Source: Alphaproteobacteria bacterium GM202ARS2 (GTDB taxonomy: Bacteria > Pseudomonadota > Alphaproteobacteria > GM7ARS4). From it: DNA of 64,000 nucleotides. This document shows positions 34,501-51,568 of the stretch, in pieces (within the stretch, counting starts at the first letter, position 1; every line of letters starts with the position of its first letter). The notes beneath the pieces were generated by a model, which was given only the letters and a program-made list of their open reading frames with translations, did no database searches and had not been told where the DNA came from. The translations under genes were made by a program, and so were the position numbers. The stretch spans positions 95,363 through 159,362 of the forward strand of contig JACONH010000012.1 in the NCBI GenBank assembly GCA_014323835.1, in the 5' to 3' direction.

Positions 34501-37500
34501 TGGTTGTGGTGGCGGCGGAGCGTTATCAGACCTACGATAGTGCCAGCTCGTGGGCGGAGAACTCGCCTTGTGGTGGTTTGGTGCAGACCCTCTGTATCGC
34601 TGCCCCGGGTGTGTATCGTTATCGCGACCGTGATGATGATGGCAACTATGAGACAAGCCTAAGCACGGGCTCTAGTGCGAATGCCGCGGCGGCACTGGTT
34701 GCGGGCGGTGTTGCCTTGCTCGAGAGCTTGTTTGGCGACCAGCTTACGTCGGATAGGTTGGTGGTGCGTTTGCTTGCGACAGCCAGCCAAGACTTTGACT
34801 TGAGCGGACAGGGTGGCAATACGCTAGACGGCAATAACGACTATGTGGATGAGACAAACGGCTTAACGAAGGAAGAGCGTTTTGGCGTTGGCTTGCTCGA
34901 CCTCGAGTGTGCGACTCGTCCGATTGTATCGGGGGATACGCCTCGTTGTCGTGGTGGTGTGGCTCGTGGCACGCCTTCGTCTTGTTTGTCGGCGGGTCAG
35001 GGTTATCGTGATACGGGCGGAGGCTCGTGTGTATCGGGCGTGTCGTTGCGGGCTGAGGATTGCACGCGGGCGGGTGGTTTGTTTGATATCCGTCAATCCC
35101 CGCCGCGCTGTGTGACTCGAGTATCCTGTGGGGCGGACACGGACGAAATAACGGGTCGTTGTGTGATTCCTGAGCCCTCGCCGTTGGTGTGTGGCGCGCA
35201 GGGCGAATTCTACCACGCCAGCAGTGGCAGCTGTGTCACCAATTGTCGAGGCACCACCACGCCGCTGGTGAATGTGGCAGGCAATACGTGTGTGAATGCT
35301 TGTGTGGGCGGTGTCCGTGATAGGGTGACGAATACCTGTGTGGCGGCAACGATAGTGGATGTTGGGGTAACGGGTATCAGCACGCGGAATGCGGCTTTGA
35401 ACTTGTTTGTAGGCGACCCGAGCGAATCGAGCGCGGCGCAACAGGTCAAGGATATTCGTAGCGAGTATCAGGCACAGCCGTCACTAGGGATGGTGGGTGC
35501 CGCGCAGGCGTATGTCAGTCAGTTGGGTGCAAGTGACTCTATCGCGAACTTGGGTGAACTGGCGTTGGGACGCGGCAGTAACATTCGAGTTATAACCAAC
35601 GTGCGTTTTGACCCGAATCACCCTGAGTTTGCCTCGTCACTGCCGGGAGTGGACTTTAGAACGTTGACACGTTTTCTGGTGACACCCACCTCAGGCAATG
35701 AATTCACAGCCAACCGTCCGGATCTGGTTCGCTCCAGTGTCTTCCCTCGTGATAGTGGCAACACGGTCGAGTTCTATAGTGCTGGGGTGGGGACGGGCAA
35801 TGCTCGCTTTACCATTGCTATAGACCTGACGGGTGGTAATCCCGGCTCAACAGCAACAAGCCCGTTTGAAGACCTGTCACTGACGGAAGCTGCTGCTTTA
35901 GCGGCGTCGAATGTCGACTTAGTCGCCCTACAGACACTCTTTAGGAGTCTCTTTGCTGCTTCCCCGACGGTGGTCGACTTGACAATTCAAGGGGCGGCGT
36001 CGGCTAACTTACGCCTTGAGACTTTGCCGGGTCGCTACGTGATTAACTTGAACTCGGATGCCACGATGGGATTCCAGCATATCGGGCGAGTCTATGAGGA
36101 TGGCAGTAACATTGGCTCGTATCAAATTGTTATCGACCCAGCCACTGCGGTGCGGGATGCTGGTGATGAAGGCGAATGTGTCGTCAATGAAGATTGCTAT
36201 GCTTCAGGGGTGCCGGCTATTGCGAGCGGGGCAGAGATGGGTGTGTTGGCTCTGATTAACGGCTTATTGGATGGTCAAGGGGGTGCGGGTAACACCCATG
36301 GTATCGCGCCGGCGGCAACGTTGAATGTGTATACCGGCGCGCAAGTGGGTGCGACTGGCGATAACTATTTGGACTTGGTCTATCGTGCTCGGGGTATCGA
36401 TGTGGGACGGGATATCAACGCTGACGATGCCGTTGTAGGAGATGACGACCGCAACATTGTTATCATCCAGAGCGATATGTTGCGTAACTTGGCGAGCGGT
36501 GCCACCGTCCCTGATCCTTCTACGGGTATTACCAATCTCCGTAGCAATAATTCGGCAGTGGATAACTTCTACAAAGCCTTAGAGGTGGGTGCGGCGGATA
36601 CCGCAACGCAGGATGCCTTTATCTTTGTTGCTGATGATGCCCACCGAGCCGATGACGACCCGAACAAAGGCTATGCTGGCTACGTTGAGACACTTGGTGT
36701 GATTAATAGTATGCAGACCCTCTACAACTATAGCCTTCTGGTGGTGGCTGCCGAAGACGGACAGGTTGGCTGTGCCGCACCTCGTCTTGGGTCTGCCTTA
36801 GACGACCTTAGGCGTGCCTGCATCGCTGCCCCGGGGACGTATCGCTACCGCACCCGTAACTCTACCGATGGGACGTATAACGATGCACTAGCAACCGCTA
36901 TCAGTGGCGATGCCGCGGCATCGTTGGTTGCCGGTGGCTTGGCTCTGTTGGAGTCGATATTCCCGACCGAGAACACCTCTCGTTTGATTGATAGGTTGTT
37001 GATGACGGCATCGCAGAACTTCGATATCGATAATGACGACCTCAACGATTACGATGTTAACCAACACGGACAAGGGCTGATGGACTTAGAGTGTGCGGTG
37101 CGTCCCGCGCTTATGAGCGGCACGCTGGCTCGCACGGGTTGCACGGATAGGTTTGCGAGTGGTATTCCCGACCCGACTCCGCCGTCGCAGAATGCGCCGT
37201 TACCGCGCCCGCCTTCACAGAACGCTGAGCCTGTCGGTGAGTCGCAAGGGGAGCGCGCCGATACCGGCGGTGTCGAGTATTGTCATATTGATGGTTTGCG
37301 GATTATTTTGTCTGGTGATTTATGTTCGGACGATTATATATTGCTGGCGGACAGCGAGGGCGAGGTCAATCCTGATGCGATAGGTAACTTGCGGTTTGGC
37401 ATGGGCTTTGGCGATGCTTTATCGGGCAGTGCTTTTGGTGGCATTACGTTCTTTGATGCTTTTGATACGGCGTGGACGATAGACAATCCGTATAATCCGT

Positions 37501-38654
37501 ATGCGCAGCTGTTGGACTTTGGCAGTATTGTGATTGCGCCGATTGAGTCTCGTTTTGACATTGAGGATAGGTTCTATGCGATGCGTTATGGCACGCGTCC
37601 GGGCACGCGTAAGACGTGGAATAGTGATACGGCGAATATCACGATGGACTTTGCTACGCAGGGCATGGCGACCAAGCCTTATGCGGTCACTCGGGGTCAA
37701 ATCCGCAACACGATAACCCATGATAATGTGGGTGCTGACCCGTATGCGGATGTGCGCTTTATGTTGTCGGCGGAGGACAACGTGGGCATTGGCAGGCTGA
37801 AGGTTATGGCGTATTCGGGCATGGCGATGGGGTATGCTTTGGGCTTGCATGCGCAGGGCGATGCGATGATGCCGAGTTATTTGCTGACGAACCGTGATTC
37901 CTTCCATGCGCCGTATTTGTCGTTGGCGAGCAGTGGCTTAGGTGGTGGTATGACGTATCGATTCCGTGATGGTGGTCATATTGGTTTTGTGATGGGTGAG
38001 GGCACGAGTTTGAATGCGGATGGCACTTTGCCGTATCAGCAGCAGACGCGTCGTCCTAGGGCTTTTGCTGGCATGATGGAGTATGCCCCGCATGGCAATT
38101 TGATGTTCCATGTGGGTGTTTTGCAGGAGCAGAGCACGTTGTTGGCATCGCAGGGTTCGGGTTTGTTTGCGTTGCAGGGTGGCACAACGGCGTTCTTTGG
38201 CATGCAAGCCAAGCAGCCGTTGGGTGACAACTGGCAGGCGTTGGTGAGTGGTTATGGGGGTCGCACGCAGATGGCTCGCACGAGTGGCATTGTGTCAGGC
38301 TTGGATGTGGTGACGTCATCCTTTGATGTGGGCTTGTTGGGCTCGCATGTGTTAGAGAAGGGCGACCATGTGTTGTTCCGTGCGGGACAGCCTATGCGGG
38401 TAGAGTCGGGCACGTTGGACTTGTCCTATGTATCGTTCCGCAACAAAGCGCGGGGCTCGGTGGGCAATGTGCAGAGCTTGGATGTTGCACCAAGCATGCG
38501 CTCGGTGGAATTCGGCGTGGGCTATGGCTTACCCATAGGCACAAACGGAAGCACGGGACACATGCGATTCGCTATCGACTATGTCCTCAACCCGGGACAC
38601 CGCAACGTCCAAGACGAAGTCTTCGGTATCATGTCCTTCAGAAGAGAATTCTAG
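28509..38654 (+). CDS. giant surface protein paralog (3381 aa). It has a lipoprotein-type signal, three subtilase(S8)-like modules, Cys-rich repeats and a C-terminal autotransporter-like beta-domain.
   Basis: GGGGAGGG SD 6 nt before the ATG. The signal/lipobox is ...IAVFVLLVGACDSG, followed by TPTDPTTPTDPGTTDPG. Three modules carry the YANQPS / RFDPSHPEF / NTHGVAPGA / APG / SANAAAALVAGG motifs. The C-terminal ~520 aa are near-identical to 26900..28497 and end in GIMSFRREF. Confidence 0.75.
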   Translation: MNTSTTHTATTQTGRKTTMTLLTGFCNTLRNIGIAVFVLLVGACDSGTEFSPSREVPFARSGGSGGVTPTDPTTPTDPGTTDPGTVDPSRGGLVAASICATPYEGLPQGMTEASQCVRLNAPSLDENGNIVTNRDGTEVPRYRDDGISRESLCYRAGRNDEPLVYDHSTVSCVRAFQGCPDGQGVIQALGNNEQSGLGRRCSGQTPENIQTISTVVVGIASGDDADARQGKIDAAITAERMANPDVDLINVVEVFYDSTDDGTAQANKLQAVTNKVNGAPLVDGEARFIFRTVAVGIEPTDTPAERLAKVKAAITAERATLPSGGGGETALNANSIINVIEVFYDDGDSDAEKERKVAEAMRDEAQGNRFEHQLLFVTVAVGIEPDDTQAMREDKIRDAINARRAEVPNALAIVAVPVFHEADDTDDEKNAALAAALAEAVRGDNQEATALRKKYGSYTADMCSAGGRLLTVRGTGADALTGTGCTNLCADGTFVGDGGGSRSAGICYNDVACTASGGGRAERGSGACIAASPESCYGVSRAGSEGVAAVSYFFTNSRCIHNGCIDDISLVRATSATRGTSTCTTVRECYNQHGRTLTGNRCVASSRLCLRRGGRGFDGDRCVAASEDSCGGGLAFYYEGQCLRATCGERNEIPDARRFDKCISEANCTSDRSAALAQSGEICVSKQQGCPTGQGVNGERCTETVNAATCADAGRFVDVRGGGGARCFNTCAGREVIAGNVCLVDTCAADEVYSPTSFQCVDIDSDADTAATQCQAVGLVANVANSRCVERCSGNTRIATTGTPRCVTDVTRSSCLSNNQAFDRATGECVTADLDTCAATGAFYDGSACVEFGNNATMITTIRGTDDAAADGVDGKQSAALAALREAIAAVDDADIGSTQDVTTTVDDDDDPNTPEVPMDFFGNGADLLLLQASASDTPTRTMLLNRLRVAYANQPSLDQVGAVFAHHVGDSGRTYGFGSTVSYFAPIPTSDREGSDQGLLDLISGGGDVSDAAVTLGENFNFGGIKTLRHSIAPEATLNVVNTAGMALQRDSSGLRAIVSRSGTRTTAGSESSLRSLIDRDEFVVQLQDTNVYRHITGAGAPAWQTRGNVILFDNRMAADKDIHTVFAARAANYFEGLTTDTNADAIDPIGFRNSVWRLDARGGATLATSSFTRDLDAYFYAPGTQSPAFANVRYDNLYIDQPRGNNEVYTLPGGFFTRPPPLGGTFPHRPQGEQLRNLVIEGLYGTGTRLYPTTRGRETRLRLVVNTLNARTDTYKMVDTFRRFDNNELNVIDAIIDLMRQRAATPDVEMDALIFAADDEASDIGLFAGLPIYIDRIRATRDSGIDSPLPYYLAVVAAEEGACGWTARDFCITAPGSYTYAASGATSLSTATSANAAAALVAGGVALLQEIFDGQLGTAEIIARLKATASQNFDVDDDGSNDYVGNEDIPDADDVRAGQRRFGHGLLDLACATRASLTQRRCRTITVNNVLSDDAQACLRARQGFDGSACITSPVSQADCDLLNATFSNGQCMAPRAPRVVRGNRQTCLSSGRGFDGTNCIAIPVVQEHCDPLNAILARGNRCVAPGGAPAVILGNRDSEADVVALFETSAPSFSAGVTNVQRLAREYQNQPSFRTIGVADAYARGSERVTYGSRTDRLMLHDLNLGQGARISYITNSRFDPSHPEFTRDAYVTAENNHVRTVQVIDPVTMMPMMETVIDPDTMTEVTRVVTRDIITELSKTYGAESNIAHHGIHIETAFLTPREGEPDISTLIGGIDAADMGVMALINGLVNPSGSTDAATYASNTHGVAPGARLEVFTIPHLGFYSHGAFRVNEQTLVRRARGADPSGNNNNFRNIVVFSNEMIREEAEIHPVTMRNLIEVVDDRTDGRFGSTGHIPLTNPEGGDPRDTVVGYDTTFRTLVENVRAPHRTRSDIRQAQDIYVFAALDGRGDTRDSSGIKAGFNDAGLFASLVAASRPNNDDGTLGRAVFADYSLVVVAAERYQTYDSASSWAENSPCGGLVQTLCIAAPGVYRYRDRDDDGNYETSLSTGSSANAAAALVAGGVALLESLFGDQLTSDRLVVRLLATASQDFDLSGQGGNTLDGNNDYVDETNGLTKEERFGVGLLDLECATRPIVSGDTPRCRGGVARGTPSSCLSAGQGYRDTGGGSCVSGVSLRAEDCTRAGGLFDIRQSPPRCVTRVSCGADTDEITGRCVIPEPSPLVCGAQGEFYHASSGSCVTNCRGTTTPLVNVAGNTCVNACVGGVRDRVTNTCVAATIVDVGVTGISTRNAALNLFVGDPSESSAAQQVKDIRSEYQAQPSLGMVGAAQAYVSQLGASDSIANLGELALGRGSNIRVITNVRFDPNHPEFASSLPGVDFRTLTRFLVTPTSGNEFTANRPDLVRSSVFPRDSGNTVEFYSAGVGTGNARFTIAIDLTGGNPGSTATSPFEDLSLTEAAALAASNVDLVALQTLFRSLFAASPTVVDLTIQGAASANLRLETLPGRYVINLNSDATMGFQHIGRVYEDGSNIGSYQIVIDPATAVRDAGDEGECVVNEDCYASGVPAIASGAEMGVLALINGLLDGQGGAGNTHGIAPAATLNVYTGAQVGATGDNYLDLVYRARGIDVGRDINADDAVVGDDDRNIVIIQSDMLRNLASGATVPDPSTGITNLRSNNSAVDNFYKALEVGAADTATQDAFIFVADDAHRADDDPNKGYAGYVETLGVINSMQTLYNYSLLVVAAEDGQVGCAAPRLGSALDDLRRACIAAPGTYRYRTRNSTDGTYNDALATAISGDAAASLVAGGLALLESIFPTENTSRLIDRLLMTASQNFDIDNDDLNDYDVNQHGQGLMDLECAVRPALMSGTLARTGCTDRFASGIPDPTPPSQNAPLPRPPSQNAEPVGESQGERADTGGVEYCHIDGLRIILSGDLCSDDYILLADSEGEVNPDAIGNLRFGMGFGDALSGSAFGGITFFDAFDTAWTIDNPYNPYAQLLDFGSIVIAPIESRFDIEDRFYAMRYGTRPGTRKTWNSDTANITMDFATQGMATKPYAVTRGQIRNTITHDNVGADPYADVRFMLSAEDNVGIGRLKVMAYSGMAMGYALGLHAQGDAMMPSYLLTNRDSFHAPYLSLASSGLGGGMTYRFRDGGHIGFVMGEGTSLNADGTLPYQQQTRRPRAFAGMMEYAPHGNLMFHVGVLQEQSTLLASQGSGLFALQGGTTAFFGMQAKQPLGDNWQALVSGYGGRTQMARTSGIVSGLDVVTSSFDVGLLGSHVLEKGDHVLFRAGQPMRVESGTLDLSYVSFRNKARGSVGNVQSLDVAPSMRSVEFGVGYGLPIGTNGSTGHMRFAIDYVLNPGHRNVQDEVFGIMSFRREF

Positions 38655-38657
38655 GGT

Positions 38658-39404
38658 GTGAAGGCTCAAGATTATGCCAGAGAAGGAGAAAATATAGCCG
38701 AAGGTATAAGCTCAATCATCGATTCAAACTTTAAGGATCAGGAGTGGAACAAGACGTTCGCTCGTGTCCTACAGGCACAACTCAAGCAAGCACGCAAAAT
38801 AGGCGGAGAATTACGACTCCGCCTATACGGCTCGAACGAAAAAGAAAATAAAGAAGCACAATACGATATACAAAGTATGGCAAACCAGCTCATCCCTGCG
38901 GATTGGGTCAATAAAAGTAACGAGTGTGGAACGATACACACTCGTAGAATCAGGGGCAGACAATGGCACAGATTCATTAGACAAAACAGCACAATCAAAG
39001 TAGATGACTTGCAAAATCCTATCAACGTAACAGCTGGGGACTCGTTGATTTTTACCGCAGAAAATGAAATTTACGATACCATGCACGAATTCGTTCACAG
39101 ACTACAAAACGTCTTCCCTGACATTCAAGAGATGTTTCAAAGTATCCACGACCAGCGAACTGCTCACGAAGACATAGATTATCTTTATCACGACGGGCAT
39201 GAAGTTGGCAAAAAGGACGATTACATTAACGCATATTTTGGCAGAGTCTATCCACATGGGGGCGCGCTCGAACTTTGGCCTATGTGTTGCCAATCAATCA
39301 TGGGGCATTTATTAGATGACTTGTATTGCCAACGCTTTTTCCTTGAAAAAGACCCCGAATTAGCTTACATAACCATAGGCGTTCTTTTTTGTTTCGAAGG
39401 GTAA
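38658..39404 (+). CDS. hypothetical protein with an HExxH motif (possible zinc-dependent hydrolase)
   Basis: 248-aa ORF starting at GTG 4 nt after the giant-gene stop, in an AT-rich patch. It contains MHEFVHRLQ (HExxH) and several Cys/His downstream. No family could be assigned by eye. Confidence 0.45.
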   Translation: MKAQDYAREGENIAEGISSIIDSNFKDQEWNKTFARVLQAQLKQARKIGGELRLRLYGSNEKENKEAQYDIQSMANQLIPADWVNKSNECGTIHTRRIRGRQWHRFIRQNSTIKVDDLQNPINVTAGDSLIFTAENEIYDTMHEFVHRLQNVFPDIQEMFQSIHDQRTAHEDIDYLYHDGHEVGKKDDYINAYFGRVYPHGGALELWPMCCQSIMGHLLDDLYCQRFFLEKDPELAYITIGVLFCFEG

Positions 39405-39410
39405 AAAGAG

Positions 39411-39740
39411 ATGGCACAACATCAATTCAAAATCCAAAGAAACGGGCACGACTGGTCTGTCGTATGGGACGACAAAACCCAACGATTCACGGGCGACCAT
39501 CCCAAAATCGATACAATGAACCGCTTGCTCGATAATCCGCCAGGTGACTACTACGCGGGCGTCTTCCCGCCCATAGGGTGCTACCAACCAAAAACCGACA
39601 AAGCCGACCTCATGGGTCTGTTGTGCATCGCCCTCAACATTTACACAGAGAACCCCACAATCAATACACCGCCCGCCTTCAAAGACGTACGAACCCGCTA
39701 CCCAAAAAGCTTCAAATTCAACCCCAACGTCGAATACTAA
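39411..39740 (+). CDS. hypothetical protein
   Basis: 109-aa ORF 6 nt after the previous stop, in the same AT-rich cassette. No recognisable motif. Confidence 0.4.
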   Translation: MAQHQFKIQRNGHDWSVVWDDKTQRFTGDHPKIDTMNRLLDNPPGDYYAGVFPPIGCYQPKTDKADLMGLLCIALNIYTENPTINTPPAFKDVRTRYPKSFKFNPNVEY

Positions 39741-39821
39741 ACGTTTGTAAAAGGGTTGCCATCGTTGCGATAATCAACCATATTACACGTAGGGGGCAAC
39801 GTAACCTAGGGAGCTATCGAC

Positions 39822-40160
39822 ATGGCACTGACACCCCCCGCCGCTGACGCACACGACCGCATGATCGAAGAAAACTTCGATGCTCTGCAAAAAATGCTAC
39901 CGACCCTGATGCAAAAAGAAGCAGGAAGGTATGCCCTTATGCGCGACTGCAAGCTTGTCGAGACGTTCACAGGTGCCACTGACGCGCAAAAATATGCCTC
40001 CGTGATATATGACGATGACAACTACAGCGTGCACAAAATTACAGATGCTCCCGTAGTTGTTCCTACTGTGTGGCGTGTGAGCAACAAGCCAAAAAAAGTA
40101 AGAATTGTTATCACCCCCCCAGTTGGTCCCGTCGTTATTACTCGTATGTTGGGTGTGTAG
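39822..40160 (+). CDS. hypothetical protein
   Basis: 112 aa. GGGAG lies 9 nt upstream of the ATG. Its TAG stop is directly abutted by the ATG of the next ORF. Confidence 0.45.
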   Translation: MALTPPAADAHDRMIEENFDALQKMLPTLMQKEAGRYALMRDCKLVETFTGATDAQKYASVIYDDDNYSVHKITDAPVVVPTVWRVSNKPKKVRIVITPPVGPVVITRMLGV

Positions 40161-40556
40161 ATGCCTCTGCTAAAACTTAAATTTGACCCAAAAGTTGGTG
40201 CCATCATACCTGTTGTTTTAGAGTATAAGGATGAAGGTGAAAAAAAATCTCACAAGACACGCGCTTTGATTGATACGGGGGCGAGTTCGACATGTGTAAG
40301 CGGTCGTCTTATAAAAACATTAGGGTTGTCGCCTGATGAGGAGACGGTACCTATAACAGGGACGACGGGAAAGATGGAGTCTAGAACATTTTCTGTTGAT
40401 ATTGTTCTTGCTATTGATATTGAAGAATTTAGTTTCGGGTGCCAACTTGTTGAGTATAACGAAACATCGCCCACATACGATATTTTGTTAGGGCGAGATA
40501 TCCTACAGCACTTTCTACTCCAGACTCATGGAAGCGATGGGCTCATCGGCTATTAG
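40161..40556 (+). CDS. retropepsin-like (clan AA) aspartic protease domain protein
   Basis: 131 aa. ALIDTGASSTCVS carries the D-T-G-A active-site signature of the retroviral-type aspartyl protease fold. The C-terminal ILLGRDILQHF resembles the conserved ILGxDxL flap/dimer segment. Confidence 0.6.
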   Translation: MPLLKLKFDPKVGAIIPVVLEYKDEGEKKSHKTRALIDTGASSTCVSGRLIKTLGLSPDEETVPITGTTGKMESRTFSVDIVLAIDIEEFSFGCQLVEYNETSPTYDILLGRDILQHFLLQTHGSDGLIGY

Positions 40557-40572
40557 GCTACCCCCCCCCACC

Positions 40573-41760
40573 TTACGCCTGCATACGGCGTATTGCCTCG
40601 CCGTCGCCCAATTCTGCTGCTCGTTTATAATCATCCAACGCCTTGTCCTCGTTGCCCAACGTCTCATAAGCCTTCGCACGTTGACGATACACCGCGCCCT
40701 GATACGAATCTAAGGCAATCGCCCGTGTATAATCCTCGATGGCTCTTGGCAAATCGCCCCTGCCCGCATAAGCAAAGCCTCGATTGGCATACAACAACGC
40801 ATCCGAGCCATCGCTCAATTCTATTGCCTTGGTGTAATCCACAACCGCACGATGATGGTCGCCATGACGCACATAGGCATACGCCCGATTGTTATACGCC
40901 ACCGCATAATACGGCTGTAAATCAATCGCCTGCGTAAAGTCCTCTATCGCCTCGGCAAAGTCACCGCGGCTATAATACGTGTTCGCCCGATTGTTATAGA
41001 AAACCGCCTGCTGCGGGTTTAATTCTATCGCCTTGGTATAATCACTAATCGCCTGCAACCTATCGCCCTTATCGCCCTTCTTGGCATAAGCATTGCCCCG
41101 ACTATTATAATAGCCGGCATGCTTGGGTTTGAGTTCTATCGCCTGCGTGTAATCGCTAATGGCATCGTCCTTCTCGCCCAACAAGTGATAGGCATCGCCA
41201 CGATTGCCATAATACAAGGCATCCTGCCCATTCAAAGCAATCGCCTGCGTATAATCCTTAATCGCCTCAGCCAAGTCGCCGCGGCTATAATACGTCATGC
41301 CACGATTGTTATAGTGAATAGCGTTGTCCGACTCCAGTTCGATGGCTCGAGTAAAATCCTTAATCGCCCGTAACCTGTCGCCTTGGTCGCCCTTATGAAC
41401 ATAAGCATTGCCCCGACGAGTATAAAAATCGGCCCGCTTGGGCTCCAAGTCAATCGCCTTGTTGAAATCGGCAAGAGCCCGCTCCTTGTCGCCATTCTGA
41501 TGATAAATGTCGCCGCGGTTGTTATAGAAAACCGCCTGCTTAGGCTGCAAGGCGATGGCTTGCTCCATATCCGCCAAAGCCTCGTCATACGCCGCTGCCC
41601 GCTGATACAACAACGCCCGCTCGTTATGGACAATCGCCCGCTCAACAGGATCCTGTGCGGCTTGCAACGCCTTCGTTTTGTCCTCAATCAATGCGATAAG
41701 CTTGGCATCCATCGTCTGTGCTTGTGTCATGATTCGTCCCTTGATACTATGATACGGCAC
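40573..41760 (-). CDS. tetratricopeptide (TPR) repeat protein
   Basis: 395 aa with at least 9 tandem 34-aa TPR units (AI.L.P..A..YNNRG.AY...GD...AI.DYT.AIEL.P). Confidence 0.8.
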   Translation of the reverse strand: MPYHSIKGRIMTQAQTMDAKLIALIEDKTKALQAAQDPVERAIVHNERALLYQRAAAYDEALADMEQAIALQPKQAVFYNNRGDIYHQNGDKERALADFNKAIDLEPKRADFYTRRGNAYVHKGDQGDRLRAIKDFTRAIELESDNAIHYNNRGMTYYSRGDLAEAIKDYTQAIALNGQDALYYGNRGDAYHLLGEKDDAISDYTQAIELKPKHAGYYNSRGNAYAKKGDKGDRLQAISDYTKAIELNPQQAVFYNNRANTYYSRGDFAEAIEDFTQAIDLQPYYAVAYNNRAYAYVRHGDHHRAVVDYTKAIELSDGSDALLYANRGFAYAGRGDLPRAIEDYTRAIALDSYQGAVYRQRAKAYETLGNEDKALDDYKRAAELGDGEAIRRMQA

Positions 41761-41795: not shown

Positions 41796-42410
41796 ATGTT
41801 CTTCAAACGCTTGAACCAAGACCTCACCGCCTTCTGTAGCAGAGACCCCGCGGCAACATCGAAGTTGCACGTGCTTTTGCTTTATCCCGGGTTGCATGCG
41901 CTGCTGCTGCACCGCCTCGCGCACCGCCTCTGGCGGATGCACCTGCGATTCCCCGCGCTGTTCATCGCCTTTCTCAGCCGATTCCTCACCAACATCGAAA
42001 TACACCCCGCCGCAACCATCCAAGAAGGACTCGTCATCGACCACGGCAGCGGACTCGTCATCGGCGAAACCACCATCATCGGCAAACACTGCACCCTTTA
42101 CCAAAACGTAACCCTCGGCGGCATTGCGCCCTCCATCAACACCGCCTCACAAAAAAACCGCCAAAGACACCCGCACCTGCACGACTACGTCATCATCGGC
42201 GCCGGCGCACAAGTGCTAGGGGCTATCACCATCGGCACCGGTGCGCGCATCGGCGCCAACGCCGTCGTCACCAACAACGTCAAACCCCACACAACCGTTG
42301 TCGGCATACCGGCAAAACCCATCAAACACACGCCACAAAAAACCGCTCCCGATTTCCAACCCTACGCCCTCACCACCGATACACAAAAAGATGATAAAAA
42401 AGCTCGATAG
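41796..42410 (+). CDS. cysE: serine O-acetyltransferase
   Basis: 204 aa. N-terminal SAT helical region (LLYPGLHALLLHRLAHRLW) and hexapeptide repeats (IHPAATIQEGLVIDHGSGLVIGETTIIGKHCTLYQNVTLGG). Confidence 0.8.
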   Translation: MFFKRLNQDLTAFCSRDPAATSKLHVLLLYPGLHALLLHRLAHRLWRMHLRFPALFIAFLSRFLTNIEIHPAATIQEGLVIDHGSGLVIGETTIIGKHCTLYQNVTLGGIAPSINTASQKNRQRHPHLHDYVIIGAGAQVLGAITIGTGARIGANAVVTNNVKPHTTVVGIPAKPIKHTPQKTAPDFQPYALTTDTQKDDKKAR

Positions 42411-43554
42411 CCTTTACCTCGATTGTAACGCCAGTGCGCCCTTGTTGCCCTGCGCCCGCCAAGCCCTCCTTCAGCACCTCGATACCTACGGCAATCCCTC
42501 GTCGAGCCACGCGCTCGGACAACAAGCCCGCGCCACCATCGATAGCGCCCGACAAACCATCCAAGCAACCCTCAACGCGCAACACGGACGATTCGTCTTC
42601 ACCTCAGGAGCCAGCGAATCCAACGCCCTCGCCCTCACACAAGACTGGCAACACGTTCTGCTCGCCCCCACCGACCACGACTCGCTGGTCGTCCACGCCC
42701 AATACACGTATCCCCAAACGCTGACGTTGCTCCCTGTCACCAAGCACGGACTGCTCGATATCGATGCCCTAGACTCGCAGCTGCGCACCATACGGGCAAC
42801 GTCACAAGGCACAATCCTGCTGTGCTTAACGTGGGCACACAACGAAATCGGCACATACTACGATGACGCTACGTTGCAAGCGATTGTCCGCCTCAGCCGT
42901 GTCTACGACGCTGCCCTGCACATAGACGCCGCGCAAGCCGTGGGCAAAATCCCCGTCAACATCGATGGGTTGGCTCCGCAGCACCCCGCTTTGTCGGTTG
43001 CTCTTTCCGCTCACAAAGTCGGGGGACCCAAGGGTATTGGCGGATTCTACACGACTCGACAAGAAACTCGACCCCTGACATACGGCGGCGGACAAGAATA
43101 CGCCCTCAGACCCGGTAGCGAACACACGCCCGCCATCGCTGCTTTTGCCGCCGCTGTCGCCCACACCCACAACACCACAGCACAAAAACAATGGCAGAAG
43201 TGGCGCGATGCTTTCGAAGACAACCTGCAACAGAGCCTACCGCAAGCCGTCATCATCGCTCGGGACGCCCCGAGACTGCCGAATACCAGCTGTTTTGCTC
43301 TGCCGCCGGTGCTGGCGGAAACGATGCTGGTCGCTCTCGACCTCGATAACATCGCTATTGGTAAAGGCTCTGCCTGCGCCCAAGCCAAAAATGAACCGTC
43401 ACGAACCCTGAAAGCCATCGGACACGACAGCCTACAAAGCTACACCATGCGAGCCAGCTGCGGTATGCACAACAACAAAGACGACTTCGACAGATTGCTG
43501 GCAGCCCTGCAAAAAAATGTCGAAAATATGAGCCATGCTCGTGATAGGGCTTGA
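42391..43554 (+). CDS. cysteine desulfurase family protein (class V aminotransferase, NifS-like paralog)
   Basis: Start set at ATG 42391 ([20 protein letters not shown]...). Fold-type I PLP enzyme features: ...[11 protein letters not shown]...[13 protein letters not shown]...[15 protein letters not shown]... The upstream part of the 42241 ORF overlaps cysE. Confidence 0.7.
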
Positions 43555-46367: not shown

Positions 46368-48253
46368 GTGTTATGGCTCTTTTGCAGGTTCACGAGCCTG
46401 GTGCGACTCCGCATCCGCACCAAGAAGACGACAGCGATGCGGTTGCGGTTGGCATTGACTTGGGCACGACCCATTCTTTGGTGGCATATTATGGGGAGAG
46501 GGGTCATGGGGACAAAGGTGACGTGCAGGTCATAGCGGACGAGCAGGGGCGTTGCCTGTTGCCGTCAGCTCTTGCGATGCGGGGAGAAGAATGTGTTGCG
46601 GTGGGTTACGAAGCCCTTGCATGTGCGGCGCGGGACGTGCATGTTGTGACGTCTATCAAGCGTTTTATGGGACGAGGCATTGACGATGTGGCGGGGGAGG
46701 ACACGTTGTATCCCATCGAGAGCGGCGAAGGGGGTATGGTGCGTTTGCGTTTGGGGGATGTGACTCATTCGCCGGTGGCGTTATCGGCTTTGTTGTTGCG
46801 TGCTTTGCGTGAGCGTGCGGAGCGTGCTTTGGGTTTTGCGGTTACAAAGGCGGTTATTACGGTGCCGGCTTATTTTGATGATAGTGCTCGTTTGGCAACG
46901 AAGGATGCGGCGCGTTTGGCGGGTTTACAGGTGCTGCGTCTTGTCAACGAGCCGACGGCTGCTGCTTTGGCTTATGGCTTGGATAGTGGCAATGAGGGTT
47001 TATACGCTGTTTATGACTTTGGCGGGGGTACGTTTGATATGTCGTTGTTGCGGCTACGTAAGGGTGTGTTTCAAGTGCTGGCGACGGGGGGTGATTGTGC
47101 TCTTGGGGGTGATGACTTCGACCGGGACGTGCGGGCTGCTCTGCACAAGGAGGGGTGGACAGGCAGTGGCGACAAGGCACAAGATTTACGTCTGGTGCGG
47201 CAGCTAAGGGAAACGTTGAGCAGTAAGGAAAGTGTGAGTCTTGATGATGGGGTTGTGTTGACACGGGAAGCGATGGAAGAGGCGGTTATGCCTCTTGTTG
47301 AGCGTAGTCTGCAGATTTGTGGCAACGTTATGGGTGATGCGGAGGGCATATCGGTTGATGATATACGGGGGGTTGTTTTGGCGGGTGGCTTGACTCGCAC
47401 GCCGATTGTGCGTGAGCAGGTTGAGTCGTTTTTTCATCGTCCGCCGATTACGGGCATGGATCCTGACCAAGTTGTTGTTTGGGGTGCGGCACGGCAGGCG
47501 CGGGCTTTGACGACGGGGGCACAGACTCTTTTGCTTGATGTGTGTCCGTTGTCTTTGGGGCTAGAGACGATGGGGGGTCTTTTTGAGCGTATTATTGCGC
47601 GTAATTCGCCTATTCCGTCGCAGAAAACGCAGACGTTTACGACGTGGCAGGATGGGCAGGTGGCGATGTCTTTGCATGTGTTACAGGGCGAGCGAGAAAT
47701 GGCGAGTGACAATCGTTCTTTGGCTCGTTTTGTGTTGGATGACATTCCGCCTATGACGGCTGGTGCGGCGCGCATTGATGTGAGTTTTACGATTGATGCG
47801 GATGGCTTGTTGACTGTGCAGGCACAGGAGCAATCGACGGGTCACCAGCAGCGTATTGAGGTCAAGCCGTCTTATGGCTTGTCGGAGCAAGAGATGATAG
47901 CGATGTTACGGCAAAGTGCGGAGCATGGTAGGGACGATATGGTGAAGCGTTTGTTGTTGCAGGCTCGTGTTGAGGGTAGGCGTTTGTTGTCTGCGGTTGA
48001 TTCGGCTTTGGTTCAGGCGGGGCATTTGTGTTCGGTGTCGGAAAGAAAAAGCATCGATGAGGCAATAAGCATCTTGGCACGAGCGGTCCAACGCGATACA
48101 AAAGAGGACATAACGCGGGCGATGGATGCCTTGGAGAAGGCGACCGAGCCCTTCGCGCAGCGGCGCATGCAAGAAGCCATGCGTTCGGCTTTGAAGGGAC
48201 GCTCAACGCAGGATGTCGAAAGCGCCATGCAAGACAACAAAAACAAACCATAG
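46364..48253 (+). CDS. hscA: Fe-S cluster chaperone HscA (Hsp70 family)
   Basis: 629 aa. Hsp70 motifs [22 protein letters not shown] and a substrate-binding domain. GTGA overlap with the hscB stop. Confidence 0.9.
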
Positions 48254-48265
48254 GAGAGCCAAGCC

Positions 48266-48601
48266 ATGCCCAAAGTAACGTTCGTTGAACACAACGGAAA
48301 ACGCCATGAAATCGAAGCGGAAGCGGGGCAATCTCTGCTGGAAATTGCTCACCATAACCACATCGCTTTGGAAGGTGCCTGCGAGGGCTCGTTGGCGTGC
48401 TCGACATGCCATGTTATTGTCGATGAGGCTTTTTATGATAAACTGGATGAAGCCTCCGAAAACGAAGAAGATATGTTGGACTTGGCGTGGGGACTGACGG
48501 AAACGTCACGGCTGGGCTGCCAGATTATCTTGACGGATGAACTGGACGGATTGGTGGTAACGTTGCCGGCGGCAACCCGCAACATGCAGGTGGATGGCTG
48601 A
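48266..48601 (+). CDS. fdx: [2Fe-2S] ferredoxin (Fdx, isc-associated)
   Basis: 111 aa. [34 protein letters not shown]...[17 protein letters not shown] has the adrenodoxin-type cysteine spacing. Confidence 0.85.
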
Positions 48602-48602
48602 T

Positions 48603-48803
48603 ATGGGACTGCGCTGGAGTGACACCTACGATATTGCTATCGAACTGGAAGAACGCTATCCCAACGAGGATAACGTCAATCTGCGTTTTACGGACTTGCA
48701 CAAGTGGGTCACGAGCCTGCCCGACTTCGAAGACGACCCGCAAGGGTCTAATGAATCTATCCTCGAAGCCATACAGATGGCTTGGATCGAAGAAAGAGAA
48801 TGA
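48603..48803 (+). CDS. iscX: Fe-S assembly protein IscX
   Basis: MGLRWSDTYDIAIELEERYPNEDNVNLRFTDLHKWVTSLPDFEDDPQGSNESILEAIQMAWIEE is colinear with E. coli IscX (MGLKWTDSREIGEAL...). The in-frame ATG at 48594 would overlap fdx. Confidence 0.7.
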   Translation: MGLRWSDTYDIAIELEERYPNEDNVNLRFTDLHKWVTSLPDFEDDPQGSNESILEAIQMAWIEERE

Positions 48804-49837
48804 AAGCGATCGAACGTATCAAAATCAGTAACGTTGCAGCTTTTGAGGAATTCGATTGCGCACTGTCCCCGGGCATCAACGCGTTTATTGGCGTTAATGG
48901 CACAGGAAAAACACGCCTGCTGAAACTGCTGTATATTTTTTGTCATTGGGTCGAAAGGAAGTATTTTGATACAGGCAATTTAAATATTGAATATTTGAAT
49001 GAATATTTTTTACCTAGTGAAAATTCTATTGGCAGGTTAGTAAGAAAAGGGCAGCAGGACGCTGAAGTTAGGTTTTTTATAGATGGAAAGAGTAAATTTA
49101 TGTCTTTTAGTAGAAACATGACGCAAGGCTTGATTTTTGGTGGAAACATCAAAATTGAAGCGACAATAAAAGGTGTCTACATTCCGTCAAAGGACATTCT
49201 TGCCAATGCACCAGGTTTTAGGTCTCTTTATGAAAAAAGGGAAATTCATTTTGAGAAAGTCTTTAAGGATATTCTTGACCATGCGTATCTTCCTTCTCTT
49301 AAAAACATTGATAGCAGAAAGGCGATGCTGGATATTTTGCAACGGGAGATGGGGGGACAGGTCGTCATCAAGGGCGAGGAGTTTTTTTTGGTGACGGACA
49401 AAGGGGAAGAATTCGAATTTACCCTACTGGCAGAGGGCATGCGTAAGTTAGGGTTGTTGTGGCTGTTGATTAAGAATGGTTCTTTGATAGCTGATGATGA
49501 CAATACGTTGTCGGTTTTGTGTTGGGATGAGCCTGAGACGAATTTGAATCCGAGGATGTTTGAATCGGTGGTGGATGTTCTGTTAGCGTTGCAGCGTCAA
49601 GGAGTGCAAATATTCTTGGCGACTCACAGCTATCCTTTTTTGAAGTTCATCGACCTGAAACGTAATAAAGAAAGCGACAAGGTTTTGTTTCATGCTCTCG
49701 ATGTTGATACGTCCCATGGTGTTACGTGCGAAAGCACGAAGCATTACGAAGACCTTGCCCCCAATGCGTTGGTTGAAGCCTATGATACGCTATATGACTA
49801 TGAAATCAAACGTATGGTGGGGAGAAAAAGAACGTGA
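48800..49837 (+). CDS. ABC-type / AAA_21-like ATPase (defence-associated family candidate)
   Basis: Start set at ATG 48800 (ATGA overlap with the iscX stop): MKAIERIKISNVAAFEEF.. Walker A is GVNGTGKT, signature-like LAEGMRKLGLL, Walker B LSVLCWDEPETNLNP, H-loop IFLATHSYPF. GC content drops sharply after about 48930. Confidence 0.7.
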   Translation: MKAIERIKISNVAAFEEFDCALSPGINAFIGVNGTGKTRLLKLLYIFCHWVERKYFDTGNLNIEYLNEYFLPSENSIGRLVRKGQQDAEVRFFIDGKSKFMSFSRNMTQGLIFGGNIKIEATIKGVYIPSKDILANAPGFRSLYEKREIHFEKVFKDILDHAYLPSLKNIDSRKAMLDILQREMGGQVVIKGEEFFLVTDKGEEFEFTLLAEGMRKLGLLWLLIKNGSLIADDDNTLSVLCWDEPETNLNPRMFESVVDVLLALQRQGVQIFLATHSYPFLKFIDLKRNKESDKVLFHALDVDTSHGVTCESTKHYEDLAPNALVEAYDTLYDYEIKRMVGRKRT

Positions 49838-50337
49838 CCTATCTTGAAGAAGGTAATTTGCGCATTGCCAAAGGTGGTGCTCTTCGTTGTTATAAGTTCG
49901 ATGACGAGAGGCAAACTGCTCGTGGCATGAAAGCAGTGGACTTTATTTTTGAATTTGACGATTGCTATTGGTTTATTGAATTCAAAGATCCAGACGACCC
50001 TCGTGCGCGTAAAGAAAGTCGAGATAAATTTTTTGGAAAGGAAATTGACATTGAATTAGCAATAAAATTTAGGGATACTTTTTTGTACCGTTGGGCTGAA
50101 GGTGGAGACGAGGCTCAGGGTAAAAAAGCTATACGTTACCTCGTTTTGTTCACAGGGCTGGATAGTGGTCAACGCATAAGAAGGATGGAATCGTTAAGAA
50201 ATAAATTGCGTGATAGTGATTGTTGTCCAAAGTCGTGGAAGAATATACTTCTCGATGAGTGTGCTATCTTTGATATGGAAGAATGGAATAAAAGATTTCC
50301 CGACAATCCTGTATCTCGGCTGAGCGAGTCCGTATGA
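49834..50337 (+). CDS. small protein with a PD-(D/E)xK nuclease-like core motif (hypothetical partner of the ATPase)
   Basis: GTG start overlapping the ATPase stop (GTGA). 167 aa. ..AVDFIFEFDDCYWFIEFKD.. fits the beta-strand D ... E-x-K pattern of restriction-endonuclease-fold nucleases. AT-rich codon usage. Confidence 0.6.
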   Translation: MTYLEEGNLRIAKGGALRCYKFDDERQTARGMKAVDFIFEFDDCYWFIEFKDPDDPRARKESRDKFFGKEIDIELAIKFRDTFLYRWAEGGDEAQGKKAIRYLVLFTGLDSGQRIRRMESLRNKLRDSDCCPKSWKNILLDECAIFDMEEWNKRFPDNPVSRLSESV

Positions 50338-50375
50338 AAGCATAAGAATATAAGTTTTTGTCTTTTATGCTTTTT
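50338..50375 (+). terminator. putative terminator hairpin between convergent genes
   Basis: AAGCATAA - 19-nt loop - TTATGCTT followed by TTT, immediately after the stop at 50337. Confidence 0.35.
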
Positions 50376-50383
50376 AGGTTCTG

Positions 50384-51568
50384 TCATCGTTTCGGTGAGC
50401 GTGGGGTCGCCTTTACTGTGTCTTTTGTTTTGGTATATTGCTGGTGCAGGCTCTTATGTGTTTGGCGGATAGCCCGTGTTTCTTCCTGTAGGAAGGCTTT
50501 GACGGCTCGGTGCAACCCTTCGTGGTGCATCATGTGGCTACTATAGGTCAGGGTGGGCTCGTAGCCTCGTAGCAATTTGTGTCCGCCTTGTGCGCCAGCT
50601 TCGACGGCGTCTAATCCGTGCTCGATGGCATAGGCGATGGCTTGGTAATAGCACAACTCGAAGTGCACAAACGCGCAATGCCGCGCACAGCCCCAGTAAC
50701 GCCCATACAGACGCTTGCCGTCGCGCACATGTAACGCTCCTGCTTGTAACACGCCTTTGTTATCTCGAGCCGTTGCCATAAGGATGCGCTCAGGCATCGT
50801 CTCCGCCAACAGCGGAAACAGCTGCGCCGTCAAATAAGCATAGCTGCCGTGGTCATCGATGGTTTTGCGGTAAAAGGCATAGAACCGCCGCCAATCCTCG
50901 TCCGTCAGGCTAGCAGGCGACTCCATAGCGATGCGCAGCCCGTGGTTGTGTGCTTTCTCTCGCTCTTTTTTAATCGCCTTGCGCTTGCGAGACGGCAACC
51001 GAGCAAGAAAGTCATCGAAACAGGTATCATCGCGCCGATACCAGTGAAACTGGATGCCAAGCCGAGTCAAATAACCGCTGTTTTCCGCCTCTCGGGCTTG
51101 CTCGGGCGGCAGAAACGTCAGATGCAAGGACGATACCCGCGACGCACTGAAGTCAGCAAGACAACGCAAGATAGGCGCAACCTCGTGGGGCTGGCATGCC
51201 TCCGCCAGTAACAGCCGATTGCCCGCTACCGGCGTAAAGGGCGAAGCAACAAGCCCCTTCGGGTAATAGGCAATGCCCGCCTGATGAGCAGCATGCGCCC
51301 AAGCATGGTCAAAAACAAATTCCCCTTGCGAATGAGCCTTCAGATAAAAAGGAACGCAAGCCTTGAGAACAGGGGGCGTGCCGTGATAAATAAGAAGAGG
51401 ACGAGAACGCCAGCCACTCGTGTTGTCAAGGCAACCGCTCGCCTCCAGAGCACAAAGAAACCCATGACTCGTAAAAGGAGACAACTCACCACCGCACCGC
51501 CGCCACAACGCAGAAGGCACAGCACCCACACAAGAATAGTCACGGACAGTATACATGAGCACAAACAC
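50384..51568 (-). CDS. FemAB-like / BioF2-like GNAT-fold acetyltransferase family protein
   Basis: 394 aa. ...PLLIYHGTPPVLKACVPFYLKAHSQGEFVFDHAWAHAAHQAGIAYYPKGLVASPFTP...LHVRDGKRLYGRYWGC...FELCYYQAIAYAIEHGLDAVEAGAQGGHKL.RGY.P matches the DUF482/FemAB-like family pattern. The start may be the internal M at 51554 to avoid overlap with speE. Confidence 0.6.
   Translation of the reverse strand: MFVLMYTVRDYSCVGAVPSALWRRCGGELSPFTSHGFLCALEASGCLDNTSGWRSRPLLIYHGTPPVLKACVPFYLKAHSQGEFVFDHAWAHAAHQAGIAYYPKGLVASPFTPVAGNRLLLAEACQPHEVAPILRCLADFSASRVSSLHLTFLPPEQAREAENSGYLTRLGIQFHWYRRDDTCFDDFLARLPSRKRKAIKKEREKAHNHGLRIAMESPASLTDEDWRRFYAFYRKTIDDHGSYAYLTAQLFPLLAETMPERILMATARDNKGVLQAGALHVRDGKRLYGRYWGCARHCAFVHFELCYYQAIAYAIEHGLDAVEAGAQGGHKLLRGYEPTLTYSSHMMHHEGLHRAVKAFLQEETRAIRQTHKSLHQQYTKTKDTVKATPRSPKR

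What the first reader, a model, noticed from the sequence alone, without database searches (positions are those of the whole stretch)
48800..50375. AT-rich two-gene module (ABC/AAA_21-like ATPase + PD-(D/E)xK-like small protein) grafted onto the end of the isc operon: candidate defence or abortive-infection system
Read directly: immediately after iscX, with an ATGA overlap, begins a 345-aa ATPase. It has Walker A GVNGTGKT, an ABC-signature-like LAEGMRKL, Walker B VLCWDEPETNLNP and an H-loop LATHS. It ends with a GTGA overlap into a 167-aa ORF whose core AVDFIFEFDDCYWFIEFKD fits the D…ExK nuclease motif. GC content falls abruptly about 130 bp into the ATPase gene and recovers at the convergent downstream gene (50384..51568, '-'). 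A hairpin plus T-run follows at 50338..50375. ATPase + small nuclease pairs of this build are the hallmark of many phage-defence systems (Septu, PARIS, Gabija, RloAB, AAA_21 + DUF4276 and others). I cannot assign it to a named system from the sequence. The housekeeping-looking 5' end and coupling to iscX suggest a recombinational graft, so that the module is co-transcribed with the Fe-S operon.
Basis: partly seen in the sequence, partly recalled or inferred. Interest (0 to 1): 0.75.

Follow-up and report, generated by a model that had tools for sequence, protein, structure and literature searches.

The report
HEC-02 phage-defence pair after iscX
The AT-rich two-gene block after the iron-sulphur (isc) operon is a horizontally acquired copy of HEC-02, an already described two-gene anti-phage system, so it is a new member of a known kind whose only unusual feature is that it is fused start-to-stop to the housekeeping gene iscX.

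Summary
These details are the gene coordinates, the ATGA and GTGA overlaps, the ATPase motifs, the D…ExK motif, the GC trough and the hairpin with a T-run.

Both proteins match PADLOC's HEC-02 models over their full length: HEC-02A at 9e-105 and HEC-02B at 1e-40. Payne et al. (bioRxiv 2024) showed that HEC-02, an ABC ATPase plus a NERD-like PD-(D/E)xK nuclease, reduces phage plaquing in E. coli and needs both genes.

- **Structure:** models place the ATPase with Rad50, SMC and Septu PtuA heads, and the small protein with restriction-endonuclease folds.
- **Acquisition:** the two closest relatives keep the order isc…iscX → slot → FemAB-like → speE → dapF → polA. Each carries different cargo in the slot. 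Homology to the nearest relative stops one base after the iscX stop codon and resumes about 8 bp beyond the FemAB stop codon.
- **Not supported:** the idea that the ATPase has a host-derived 5' end. The whole gene is cargo.
- **Inferred, not shown:** co-transcription with the isc operon.

Verdict: a new member of a known family. Interest is low to moderate.

The parts
48603..48803 (+). iscX, the last gene of the isc operon (iscS-iscU-iscA-hscB-hscA-fdx-iscX). It is intact. Its final GAA-TGA supplies the ATG of the next gene.
   Evidence: Pfam PF04384, 4e-31. Its C-terminus matches the relatives L165 and L166. JGI gene call in L001.
48804..50375 (.). Horizontally acquired cargo (about 1.57 kb, GC 0.405) that fills the slot between the convergent genes iscX and FemAB-like.
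   Evidence: blastn against L165 shows 86% identity up to 48804. Homology resumes at the shared CTGTCAT around the FemAB stop codon, at about 50376-50386. GC z = -6.6. L165 and L166 hold different cargo in the same slot.
48800..49837 (+). HEC-02A, an ABC-type (Rad50/SMC/PtuA-like) ATPase of 345 aa. Walker A lies at 48890-48913, the signature at 49424-49450, Walker B at 49514-49537 and H276 at 49625-49627.
   Evidence: PADLOC PDLC04213, 9.2e-105, residues 3-341 on profile positions 2-335 of 337. Pfam AAA_21, 1.3e-20. Motifs invariant in 18 homologues. AlphaFold2 model pLDDT 79, pTM 0.83. Foldseek finds Rad50, SMC and Septu PtuA at about E 2e-14.
49834..50337 (+). HEC-02B, a PD-(D/E)xK (NERD-like) nuclease candidate of 167 aa. 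D36 is at 49939-49941, E49 at 49978-49980 and K51 at 49984-49986.
50332..50375 (+). AT-rich hairpin plus U5, the likely intrinsic terminator of the isc-HEC-02 transcript. It lies inside the cargo.
   Evidence: Folding energy -13.2 kcal/mol, z = -3.6. Not called by the consensus scan, which needs at least 3 G-C pairs.
50384..51568 (-). FemAB_like gene, the convergent right-hand anchor of the slot. It is a host gene and not part of the system.
   Evidence: Pfam PF04339, 9.5e-127. Syntenic in L165 and L166.

Best explanation
Window 48800..50337 encodes a member of the HEC-02 family of two-gene anti-phage systems. HEC-02A is an ABC ATPase. HEC-02B is a small PD-(D/E)xK (NERD-like) nuclease.

The cassette was acquired horizontally into a variable slot between the last gene of the isc operon (iscX) and a convergent FemAB-like gene. 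The host is an uncultured alphaproteobacterium, MAG GM202ARS2.

Proposed mechanism (inferred by analogy, not shown):
1. The ATPase dimerises through its Rad50/SMC-like head and holds the nuclease in an inactive complex.
2. It senses a phage-derived cue through its variable inserts.
3. ATP binding or hydrolysis then licenses or releases HEC-02B, which cuts DNA and stops phage replication, possibly at the cost of the cell.

Proposed expression (inferred): the cassette has no 5' untranslated region of its own. Its ATG is built from the last base of iscX's final Glu codon plus the TG of the stop codon. It is therefore probably transcribed as the tail of the isc operon, translated by stop-start coupling, and terminated at the hairpin at 50332..50375.
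For: Family membership:
- Both proteins match the HEC-02 models over their full length.
- Payne et al. report that HEC-02 lowers the efficiency of plaquing of at least two phages by orders of magnitude, and that both genes are required.
- The ATPase motifs and the D/ExK triad are intact and invariant across homologues.
- The predicted folds are a Rad50/SMC/PtuA-type ATPase and a restriction-endonuclease fold.
- The A-B gene pair with a 4-bp overlap recurs in four unrelated housekeeping contexts: L162, L164, L167 and L168.

Horizontal acquisition:
- GC is 0.405 against 0.54, the lowest in the 64-kb window.
- The best non-self homologues are only 51% (A) and 45% (B) identical.
- The slot holds different cargo in L165 and L166, which are otherwise syntenic.
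- Three more distant relatives have unrelated genes after iscX.

Expression through the isc operon:
- ATGA overlap with iscX, and no promoter-like site on the + strand in 48200..48800.
- The window ATPase is the only one of 18 with an extra residue after Met1. That fits a start codon created at the junction.
Against: - No experiment exists on this copy or in this host. HEC-02 activity rests on one preprint and one representative tested in E. coli.
- This copy is divergent (at most 51% and 45% identity). It has its own insert sequences and a 5-residue insertion before Walker B.
- The Pfam NERD model does not hit any of the 12 HEC-02B homologues.
- Foldseek matches of HEC-02B to solved structures are weak, with the best E-value at 0.008.
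- The sensing cue, the nuclease substrate and the A-B complex are all inferred.
- The promoter scan covers only sigma-70-like consensus sites, so an internal promoter in fdx or iscX cannot be excluded.
- The window holds no other defence genes or mobility genes next to the cassette.
Confidence: 0.8

Rival explanations
1. The pair is a selfish addiction module of the toxin-antitoxin type. The nuclease is a toxin held in check by the ATPase, and the pair persists because losing it kills the cell, not because it protects against phage.
For: - Pfam describes AAA_21 as a 'putative AbiEii toxin, Type IV TA system'.
- The cassette sits alone among housekeeping genes in all five loci examined, not in defence islands.
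- The ends are tightly packed, with no mobility genes nearby.
Against: - HEC-02 gave phage protection that needed both genes.
- Addiction and abortive-infection defence are not mutually exclusive.
- HEC-02B is almost absent from plasmids, with 4 of 72,556 records. Addiction modules are typically enriched there.
Confidence: 0.1
2. The pair has a housekeeping role in DNA repair or maintenance. It would act as a small Rad50/SbcC-like ATPase with a partner nuclease, or serve as an accessory to Fe-S assembly, as its operon position might suggest.
For: - The ATPase model is closest to Rad50 and SMC heads.
- The cassette is translationally coupled to iscX.
Against: - It is absent from the same position in both syntenic relatives and in three further relatives.
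- Its base composition is foreign.
- It has no coiled-coil insertion. Foldseek also finds Septu PtuA at equal scores.
- The family is scattered across phyla in unrelated contexts.
Confidence: 0.04
3. It is an inactive remnant. The cassette lost its own promoter and start codon on insertion and is silent or decaying.
For: - It has no 5' region of its own.
- The Shine-Dalgarno sequence before the ATPase start is weak.
- This copy is the most divergent in its family.
Against: - Both ORFs are full length against their profiles: 2-335 of 337 and 1-169 of 171.
- Every catalytic residue is kept.
- The A-B overlap and the GGAG before B are intact.
- The identical sequence was assembled independently in a JGI metagenome.
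Confidence: 0.06

Closest known systems
HEC-02 (Hma-embedded candidate 02; PADLOC-DB v2; Payne et al., bioRxiv 10.1101/2024.01.29.577857)
   Same: - The same two proteins in the same order: an ABC ATPase of about 337 aa followed by a NERD-like PD-(D/E)xK protein of about 170 aa.
- Full-length matches to the family profiles.
- The same (D/E/Q)xK motif.
   Different: - This copy is not embedded in an Hma system. It is a stand-alone cassette fused to the end of the isc operon.
- It is at most 51% (A) and 45% (B) identical to any other member.
- It has its own insert sequences and a 5-residue insertion before Walker B.
Septu (PtuA ABC ATPase + PtuB HNH nuclease), including the retron-associated PtuAB
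   Same: - A two-gene design of ABC ATPase plus small nuclease.
- PtuA is among the best structural matches to the ATPase model, at E about 2.5e-14.
- PtuA profiles hit weakly, at 2e-10.
   Different: - The effector is a PD-(D/E)xK protein, not an HNH nuclease.
- The PtuA profile matches cover only the ATPase core motifs.
- The NCBIfam PtuA score is 20.8 against a cutoff of 500.
PARIS (AriA ABC ATPase + AriB TOPRIM nuclease)
   Same: - AAA_21/AAA_15-type ATPase paired with a small nuclease.
- AriA profiles hit at 1.7e-22.
- PARIS is the model for the sequester-and-release mechanism proposed here.
   Different: - The effector fold is PD-(D/E)xK, not TOPRIM.
- The AriA match is partial (residues 144-281) and far weaker than the HEC-02A match.
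Gabija GajA and OLD-family nucleases
   Same: They share the ABC ATPase head of the same AAA_15/AAA_21 class.
   Different: In those systems the TOPRIM nuclease is fused to the ATPase. Here the nuclease is a separate protein with a different fold.

Membership tests
HEC-02 (PADLOC) | An ABC ATPase that matches a HEC-02A profile over its full length | tested here: met
   PDLC04213, 9.2e-105, 348.9 bits, residues 3-341 on profile positions 2-335 of 337. The next-best non-HEC-02 family is AriA at 1.7e-22.
HEC-02 (PADLOC) | A small partner protein that matches a HEC-02B profile | tested here: met
   PDLC04229, 1.1e-40, residues 1-164 on profile positions 1-169 of 171. Eight further HEC-02B profiles also hit.
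HEC-02 (PADLOC) | The two genes are adjacent and on the same strand | tested here: met
   A 4-bp GTGA overlap at 49834-49837. The same arrangement occurs in L162, L164, L167 and L168.
HEC-02 (PADLOC) | A (D/E/Q)xK phosphodiesterase motif in HEC-02B (Payne et al.) | tested here: met
   D36 followed by E49-F-K51, invariant in 12 homologues. The motif is described in the preprint.
HEC-02 (PADLOC) | Anti-phage activity that needs both genes | not testable with these tools
   Shown for one representative in E. coli. Not tested for this copy.
HEC-02 (PADLOC) | Embedded within an Hma (helicase-methylase-ATPase) system. This is how the family was discovered, not a requirement for membership. | tested here: not met
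   The neighbours are isc genes, FemAB_like, speE and dapF. No helicase or methylase lies within 10 kb.
ABC ATPase clade (Rad50/SMC/PtuA-like) | Walker A, signature motif, Walker B with catalytic Glu, and H-loop, together with the ABC head fold | tested here: met
   G31-x-N-x-TGKT38, LAEGxRKL 210-217, W242-D-E244-P-E and H276 are invariant. Foldseek gives probability 1.00 to Rad50, SMC and PtuA heads.
PD-(D/E)xK nuclease superfamily | The restriction-endonuclease-like alpha/beta fold, with D…(D/E)xK on the core strands | tested here: met
Pfam NERD (PF08378) | A sequence match to the NERD profile | tested here: not met
   None of the 12 HEC-02B homologues hits NERD, even at E up to 10. The only hit is a sub-threshold PDDEXK_9 match at 0.16. 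The NERD likeness reported by Payne et al. is structural.
Septu / PARIS / Gabija | The cognate effector: HNH PtuB, TOPRIM AriB, or a fused TOPRIM plus GajB helicase | tested here: not met
   The partner has a PD-(D/E)xK fold and hits no PtuB, AriB or GajB profile.

The most novel reading that the evidence does not exclude
The iscX-FemAB gap may be a lineage-specific 'operon-tail' capture site. On this reading, promoterless cargo is spliced exactly at the iscX stop codon and expressed by read-through and stop-start coupling from the Fe-S assembly operon. The known cargoes are HEC-02 here, ankyrin-repeat genes in GM7ARS4, and an unknown gene plus a DUF2335 gene in a third genome. Defence expression would then be tied to Fe-S or oxidative-stress physiology. 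That would be an unreported way of wiring an immune module into a core housekeeping operon.
Probability: 0.12. Interest if true: 0.5.

Novelty: new member of a known kind. Interest (0 to 1): 0.3.

Why it matters
- It adds a divergent HEC-02 copy from an uncultured alphaproteobacterial lineage that, as far as I recall, is sponge-associated; the source environment was not checked here.
- It shows that these cassettes travel as bare two-gene units that land between housekeeping genes rather than in defence islands.
- The exact fusion to iscX gives a natural case for asking whether a defence system can depend entirely on a core operon for its expression.
- It does not change what is known about how HEC-02 works, which remains uncharacterised.

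Tried and rejected
- **Collection scans for an empty site.** They returned only relatives at 37-49% identity, and none of the 80 genome-contig loci (the only set checked) has isc genes nearby. Relatives were found instead through an HscA protein search.
- **Family libraries.** Pfam, NCBIfam and PHROGs gave nothing for the small protein.
- **Insertion signatures.** There are no flanking direct or inverted repeats beyond what chance gives. The two tRNA genes in the window lie about 40 kb and 8 kb from the cassette. No integrase or transposase lies in the neighbourhood.
- **Host-derived or paralogue-derived 5' end of the ATPase gene.** Rejected. It has no homology to the relatives or to any other part of the window.
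- **Carriage on mobile elements.** No phage record matches, and only 4 plasmids match, at 29-31% identity.
- **Later literature.** No paper after the preprint mentions HEC-02 in the library searched.

Full report
**1.

The ORF list and the raw sequence show iscX ending in TGA at 48801-48803. A 345-aa ORF starts at ATG 48800, so the two overlap as ATGA. The relatives' IscX proteins begin MGLRW, which places the iscX start at 48603. Pfam identifies it as Fe-S_assembly at 4e-31.

The 345-aa ORF ends in TGA at 49835-49837. This overlaps GTG 49834 of a 167-aa ORF (GTGA), and GGAG lies 9 nt upstream of that start.

The FemAB_like gene (50384..51568, minus strand, 1e-126) is convergent.

The GC content of 48804..50375 is 0.405. 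Other blocks of the same size average 0.544 +/- 0.021, which gives z = -6.6. No non-overlapping sliding window in the 64 kb is as low.

The hairpin at 50332-50370 folds at -13.2 kcal/mol (z = -3.6) and is followed by five U. The consensus scan missed it because the stem has few G-C pairs.

**2. What the two genes are**

Pfam places the ATPase in AAA_21 and AAA_15 (1.3e-20 and 3.6e-15). It finds nothing for the small protein. NCBIfam and PHROGs add nothing specific.

PADLOC-DB settles the identity:

| Protein | Best profile | E-value | Coverage |
|---|---|---|---|
| ATPase | HEC-02A PDLC04213 | 9.2e-105 | residues 3-341 on profile 2-335 of 337 |
| Small protein | HEC-02B PDLC04229 | 1.1e-40 | residues 1-164 on profile 1-169 of 171 |

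Eight further HEC-02B profiles also hit the small protein. The next-best family for the ATPase is AriA, at only 1.7e-22 and over part of the protein.

The source paper is Payne et al., bioRxiv 10.1101/2024.01.29.577857. It describes HEC-02 as an ABC ATPase plus a NERD-like PD-(D/E)xK protein with a (D/E/Q)xK motif. It reports reductions in efficiency of plaquing by orders of magnitude for at least two phages, and states that both genes are required. It also says that how these ATPases sense infection is unknown. I found no later paper that mentions HEC-02.

**3. Independent checks on the proteins**

*ATPase.* An alignment of 18 homologues shows these positions invariant:
- Walker A: G31, N33, T35-G-K-T38.
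- Signature: L209-L-A-E-G-x-R-K-L217.
- Walker B region: W242, E244-P-E-T-N-L-N-P251. D243 is nearly invariant.
- H-loop: A274-T-H276.

The AlphaFold2 model has pLDDT 79 and pTM 0.83. Foldseek matches it to Rad50, SMC and Septu/retron PtuA heads at E about 2e-14 and probability 1.00. By sequence alone, only Rad50 N-termini and FtsE appear, and weakly.

*Small protein.* It has 12 relatives in the 90%-clustered database, with non-self relatives at 34-45% identity. K21, D23, D36, E40, E49, K51, D52, K78 and D81 are invariant. The AlphaFold2 model has pLDDT 82 and pTM 0.81.

*Family size.* For HEC-02B, a profile search finds 932 representatives at the 50% identity level with E <= 1e-3, and 599 with E <= 1e-10. 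For HEC-02A, 2,839 clusters at the 90% level have E <= 1e-10, and the best non-self match is 51% identical.

**4. The pair behaves as a mobile unit**

In L162, L164, L167 and L168 an ATPase of 334-340 aa is followed, with a 4-bp overlap, by a protein of 166-171 aa that matches HEC-02B. The surroundings are unrelated housekeeping genes. Examples are the gap between bamD/recN and lpxC-ftsZ, and the gap between plsY and folB-folK. None of these loci sits in a visible defence island. HEC-02B is absent from 50,697 phage records and present on only 4 of 72,556 plasmids.

**5. Where it sits in this genome**

The window comes from the MAG 'Alphaproteobacteria bacterium GM202ARS2'. An identical stretch was assembled in JGI metagenome 3300017829.

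An HscA search found two:
- L165, with HscA 80% identical.
- L166, from MAG GM7ARS4, with HscA 57% identical.

Both keep the order isc…fdx-iscX → slot → FemAB_like(-) → speE → DUF1244 → dapF → radical-SAM methylthiotransferase-like gene (UPF0004 + Radical_SAM) → zf-CHCC → polA. The slot content differs in each genome:

| Genome | Slot content | Slot length |
|---|---|---|
| Window | HEC-02A + HEC-02B | about 1,572 bp |
| L165 | 146-aa unknown protein + 133-aa DUF2335 protein | 925 bp |
| L166 | two ankyrin-repeat proteins (133 and 355 aa) | 1,522 bp |

In blastn, identity to L165 (86%) runs up to window position 48804. It resumes around the shared CTGTCAT at the FemAB stop codon. The cargo is therefore about 48804..50375 and includes the terminator hairpin.

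Three more distant alphaproteobacteria (HscA 55-57% identical) also end the operon at iscX and have unrelated genes after it. The pair is not conserved next to iscX.

**6. The 5' end of the ATPase gene**

I find no support for this. The first 130 bp have no counterpart in L165, L166 or the rest of the window.

GC3 per 45 codons runs .51/.27/.38/.31/.69/.49/.51. The conserved ABC-core blocks are richer in GC, and the insert region (48935..49339) is AT-rich. The gene is a mosaic, not a simple 5' graft.

What is notable is the junction itself:
- The bases GAATGAA are shared with L165.
- The ATG of HEC-02A is therefore made from iscX's last Glu codon and its stop codon.
- This ATPase is the only one of 18 with an extra residue after Met1: MK-AIER against M-ALTR.

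I read this as a start codon created at the junction. The cassette would then have no 5' region of its own.

**7. How it most likely works**

*Shown:* family membership, intact catalytic motifs, the predicted folds, foreign origin and the insertion boundaries.

*Taken from the literature:* the family's anti-phage activity and the need for both genes.

*Inferred:*
- The ATPase acts as a dimeric sensor whose variable inserts detect a phage cue.
- ATP binding or hydrolysis licenses or releases the PD-(D/E)xK nuclease to cut DNA, as in the PARIS and Septu models.
- The cassette is transcribed as the tail of the isc operon, and the ATPase is translated by stop-start coupling.
- The hairpin at 50332-50375 terminates the transcript.

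No promoter-like site lies on the + strand in 48200..48800. The scan recognises only sigma-70-type consensus sites.

**8. Rival explanations**

- An addiction-module reading cannot be excluded and is compatible with abortive infection.
- A repair or Fe-S accessory role is made unlikely by the cassette's absence from relatives and by its foreign composition.
- A decayed remnant is made unlikely by the full-length profile matches and the intact motifs.

**9. Verdict**

This is a real feature, correctly sensed as a defence module, but it is already catalogued. It is a new and divergent member of HEC-02. The modest residual interest lies in the exact stop-start fusion to iscX and in the three-allele variable slot in this lineage.

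Noticed in passing
L166:12495-13960 and L165:12532-13357: The same iscX-FemAB slot holds two ankyrin-repeat genes in MAG GM7ARS4. In the closest relative (L165) it holds a 146-aa unknown protein plus a 133-aa DUF2335 membrane protein. All three cargoes point the same way as the isc operon.
   Followed up: partly
window 48935..49339 versus 48800..48934 and 49340..49744: GC3 along HEC-02A is mosaic (.51/.27/.38/.31/.69/.49/.51 per 45 codons). The variable insert region is much more AT-rich than the conserved ABC-core blocks. This could reflect recombination that swapped the insert (sensor) region. It was not tested.
   Followed up: no
window 28509..38654 (+): A giant ORF of 3,381 aa lies upstream of the isc region. 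The relative L165 has a counterpart of 4,765 aa at the matching position. No Pfam hit is on record.
   Followed up: no
window about 38958..41000: This is the second-lowest GC stretch of the window (0.45-0.48). It holds small ORFs, including a 131-aa retropepsin-like (RVP / gag-asp protease) gene at 40161..40556.
   Followed up: no
window 41796..43554; L169:779-1995; L170:910-2160: More distant alphaproteobacteria carry cysE-like and Rrf2 (IscR) genes upstream of the isc operon. No Rrf2 gene appears among the genes called upstream of the isc operon in the window's lineage or in L165 and L166. How this isc operon is regulated is therefore unclear.
   Followed up: no
PADLOC profiles PDLC04146 and PDLC04145: One profile named HEC-02B matches the ATPase (8.9e-49), and one named HEC-02A matches the small protein (3.5e-5). 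PADLOC therefore seems to hold a HEC-02 variant with the A and B labels swapped.
   Followed up: no
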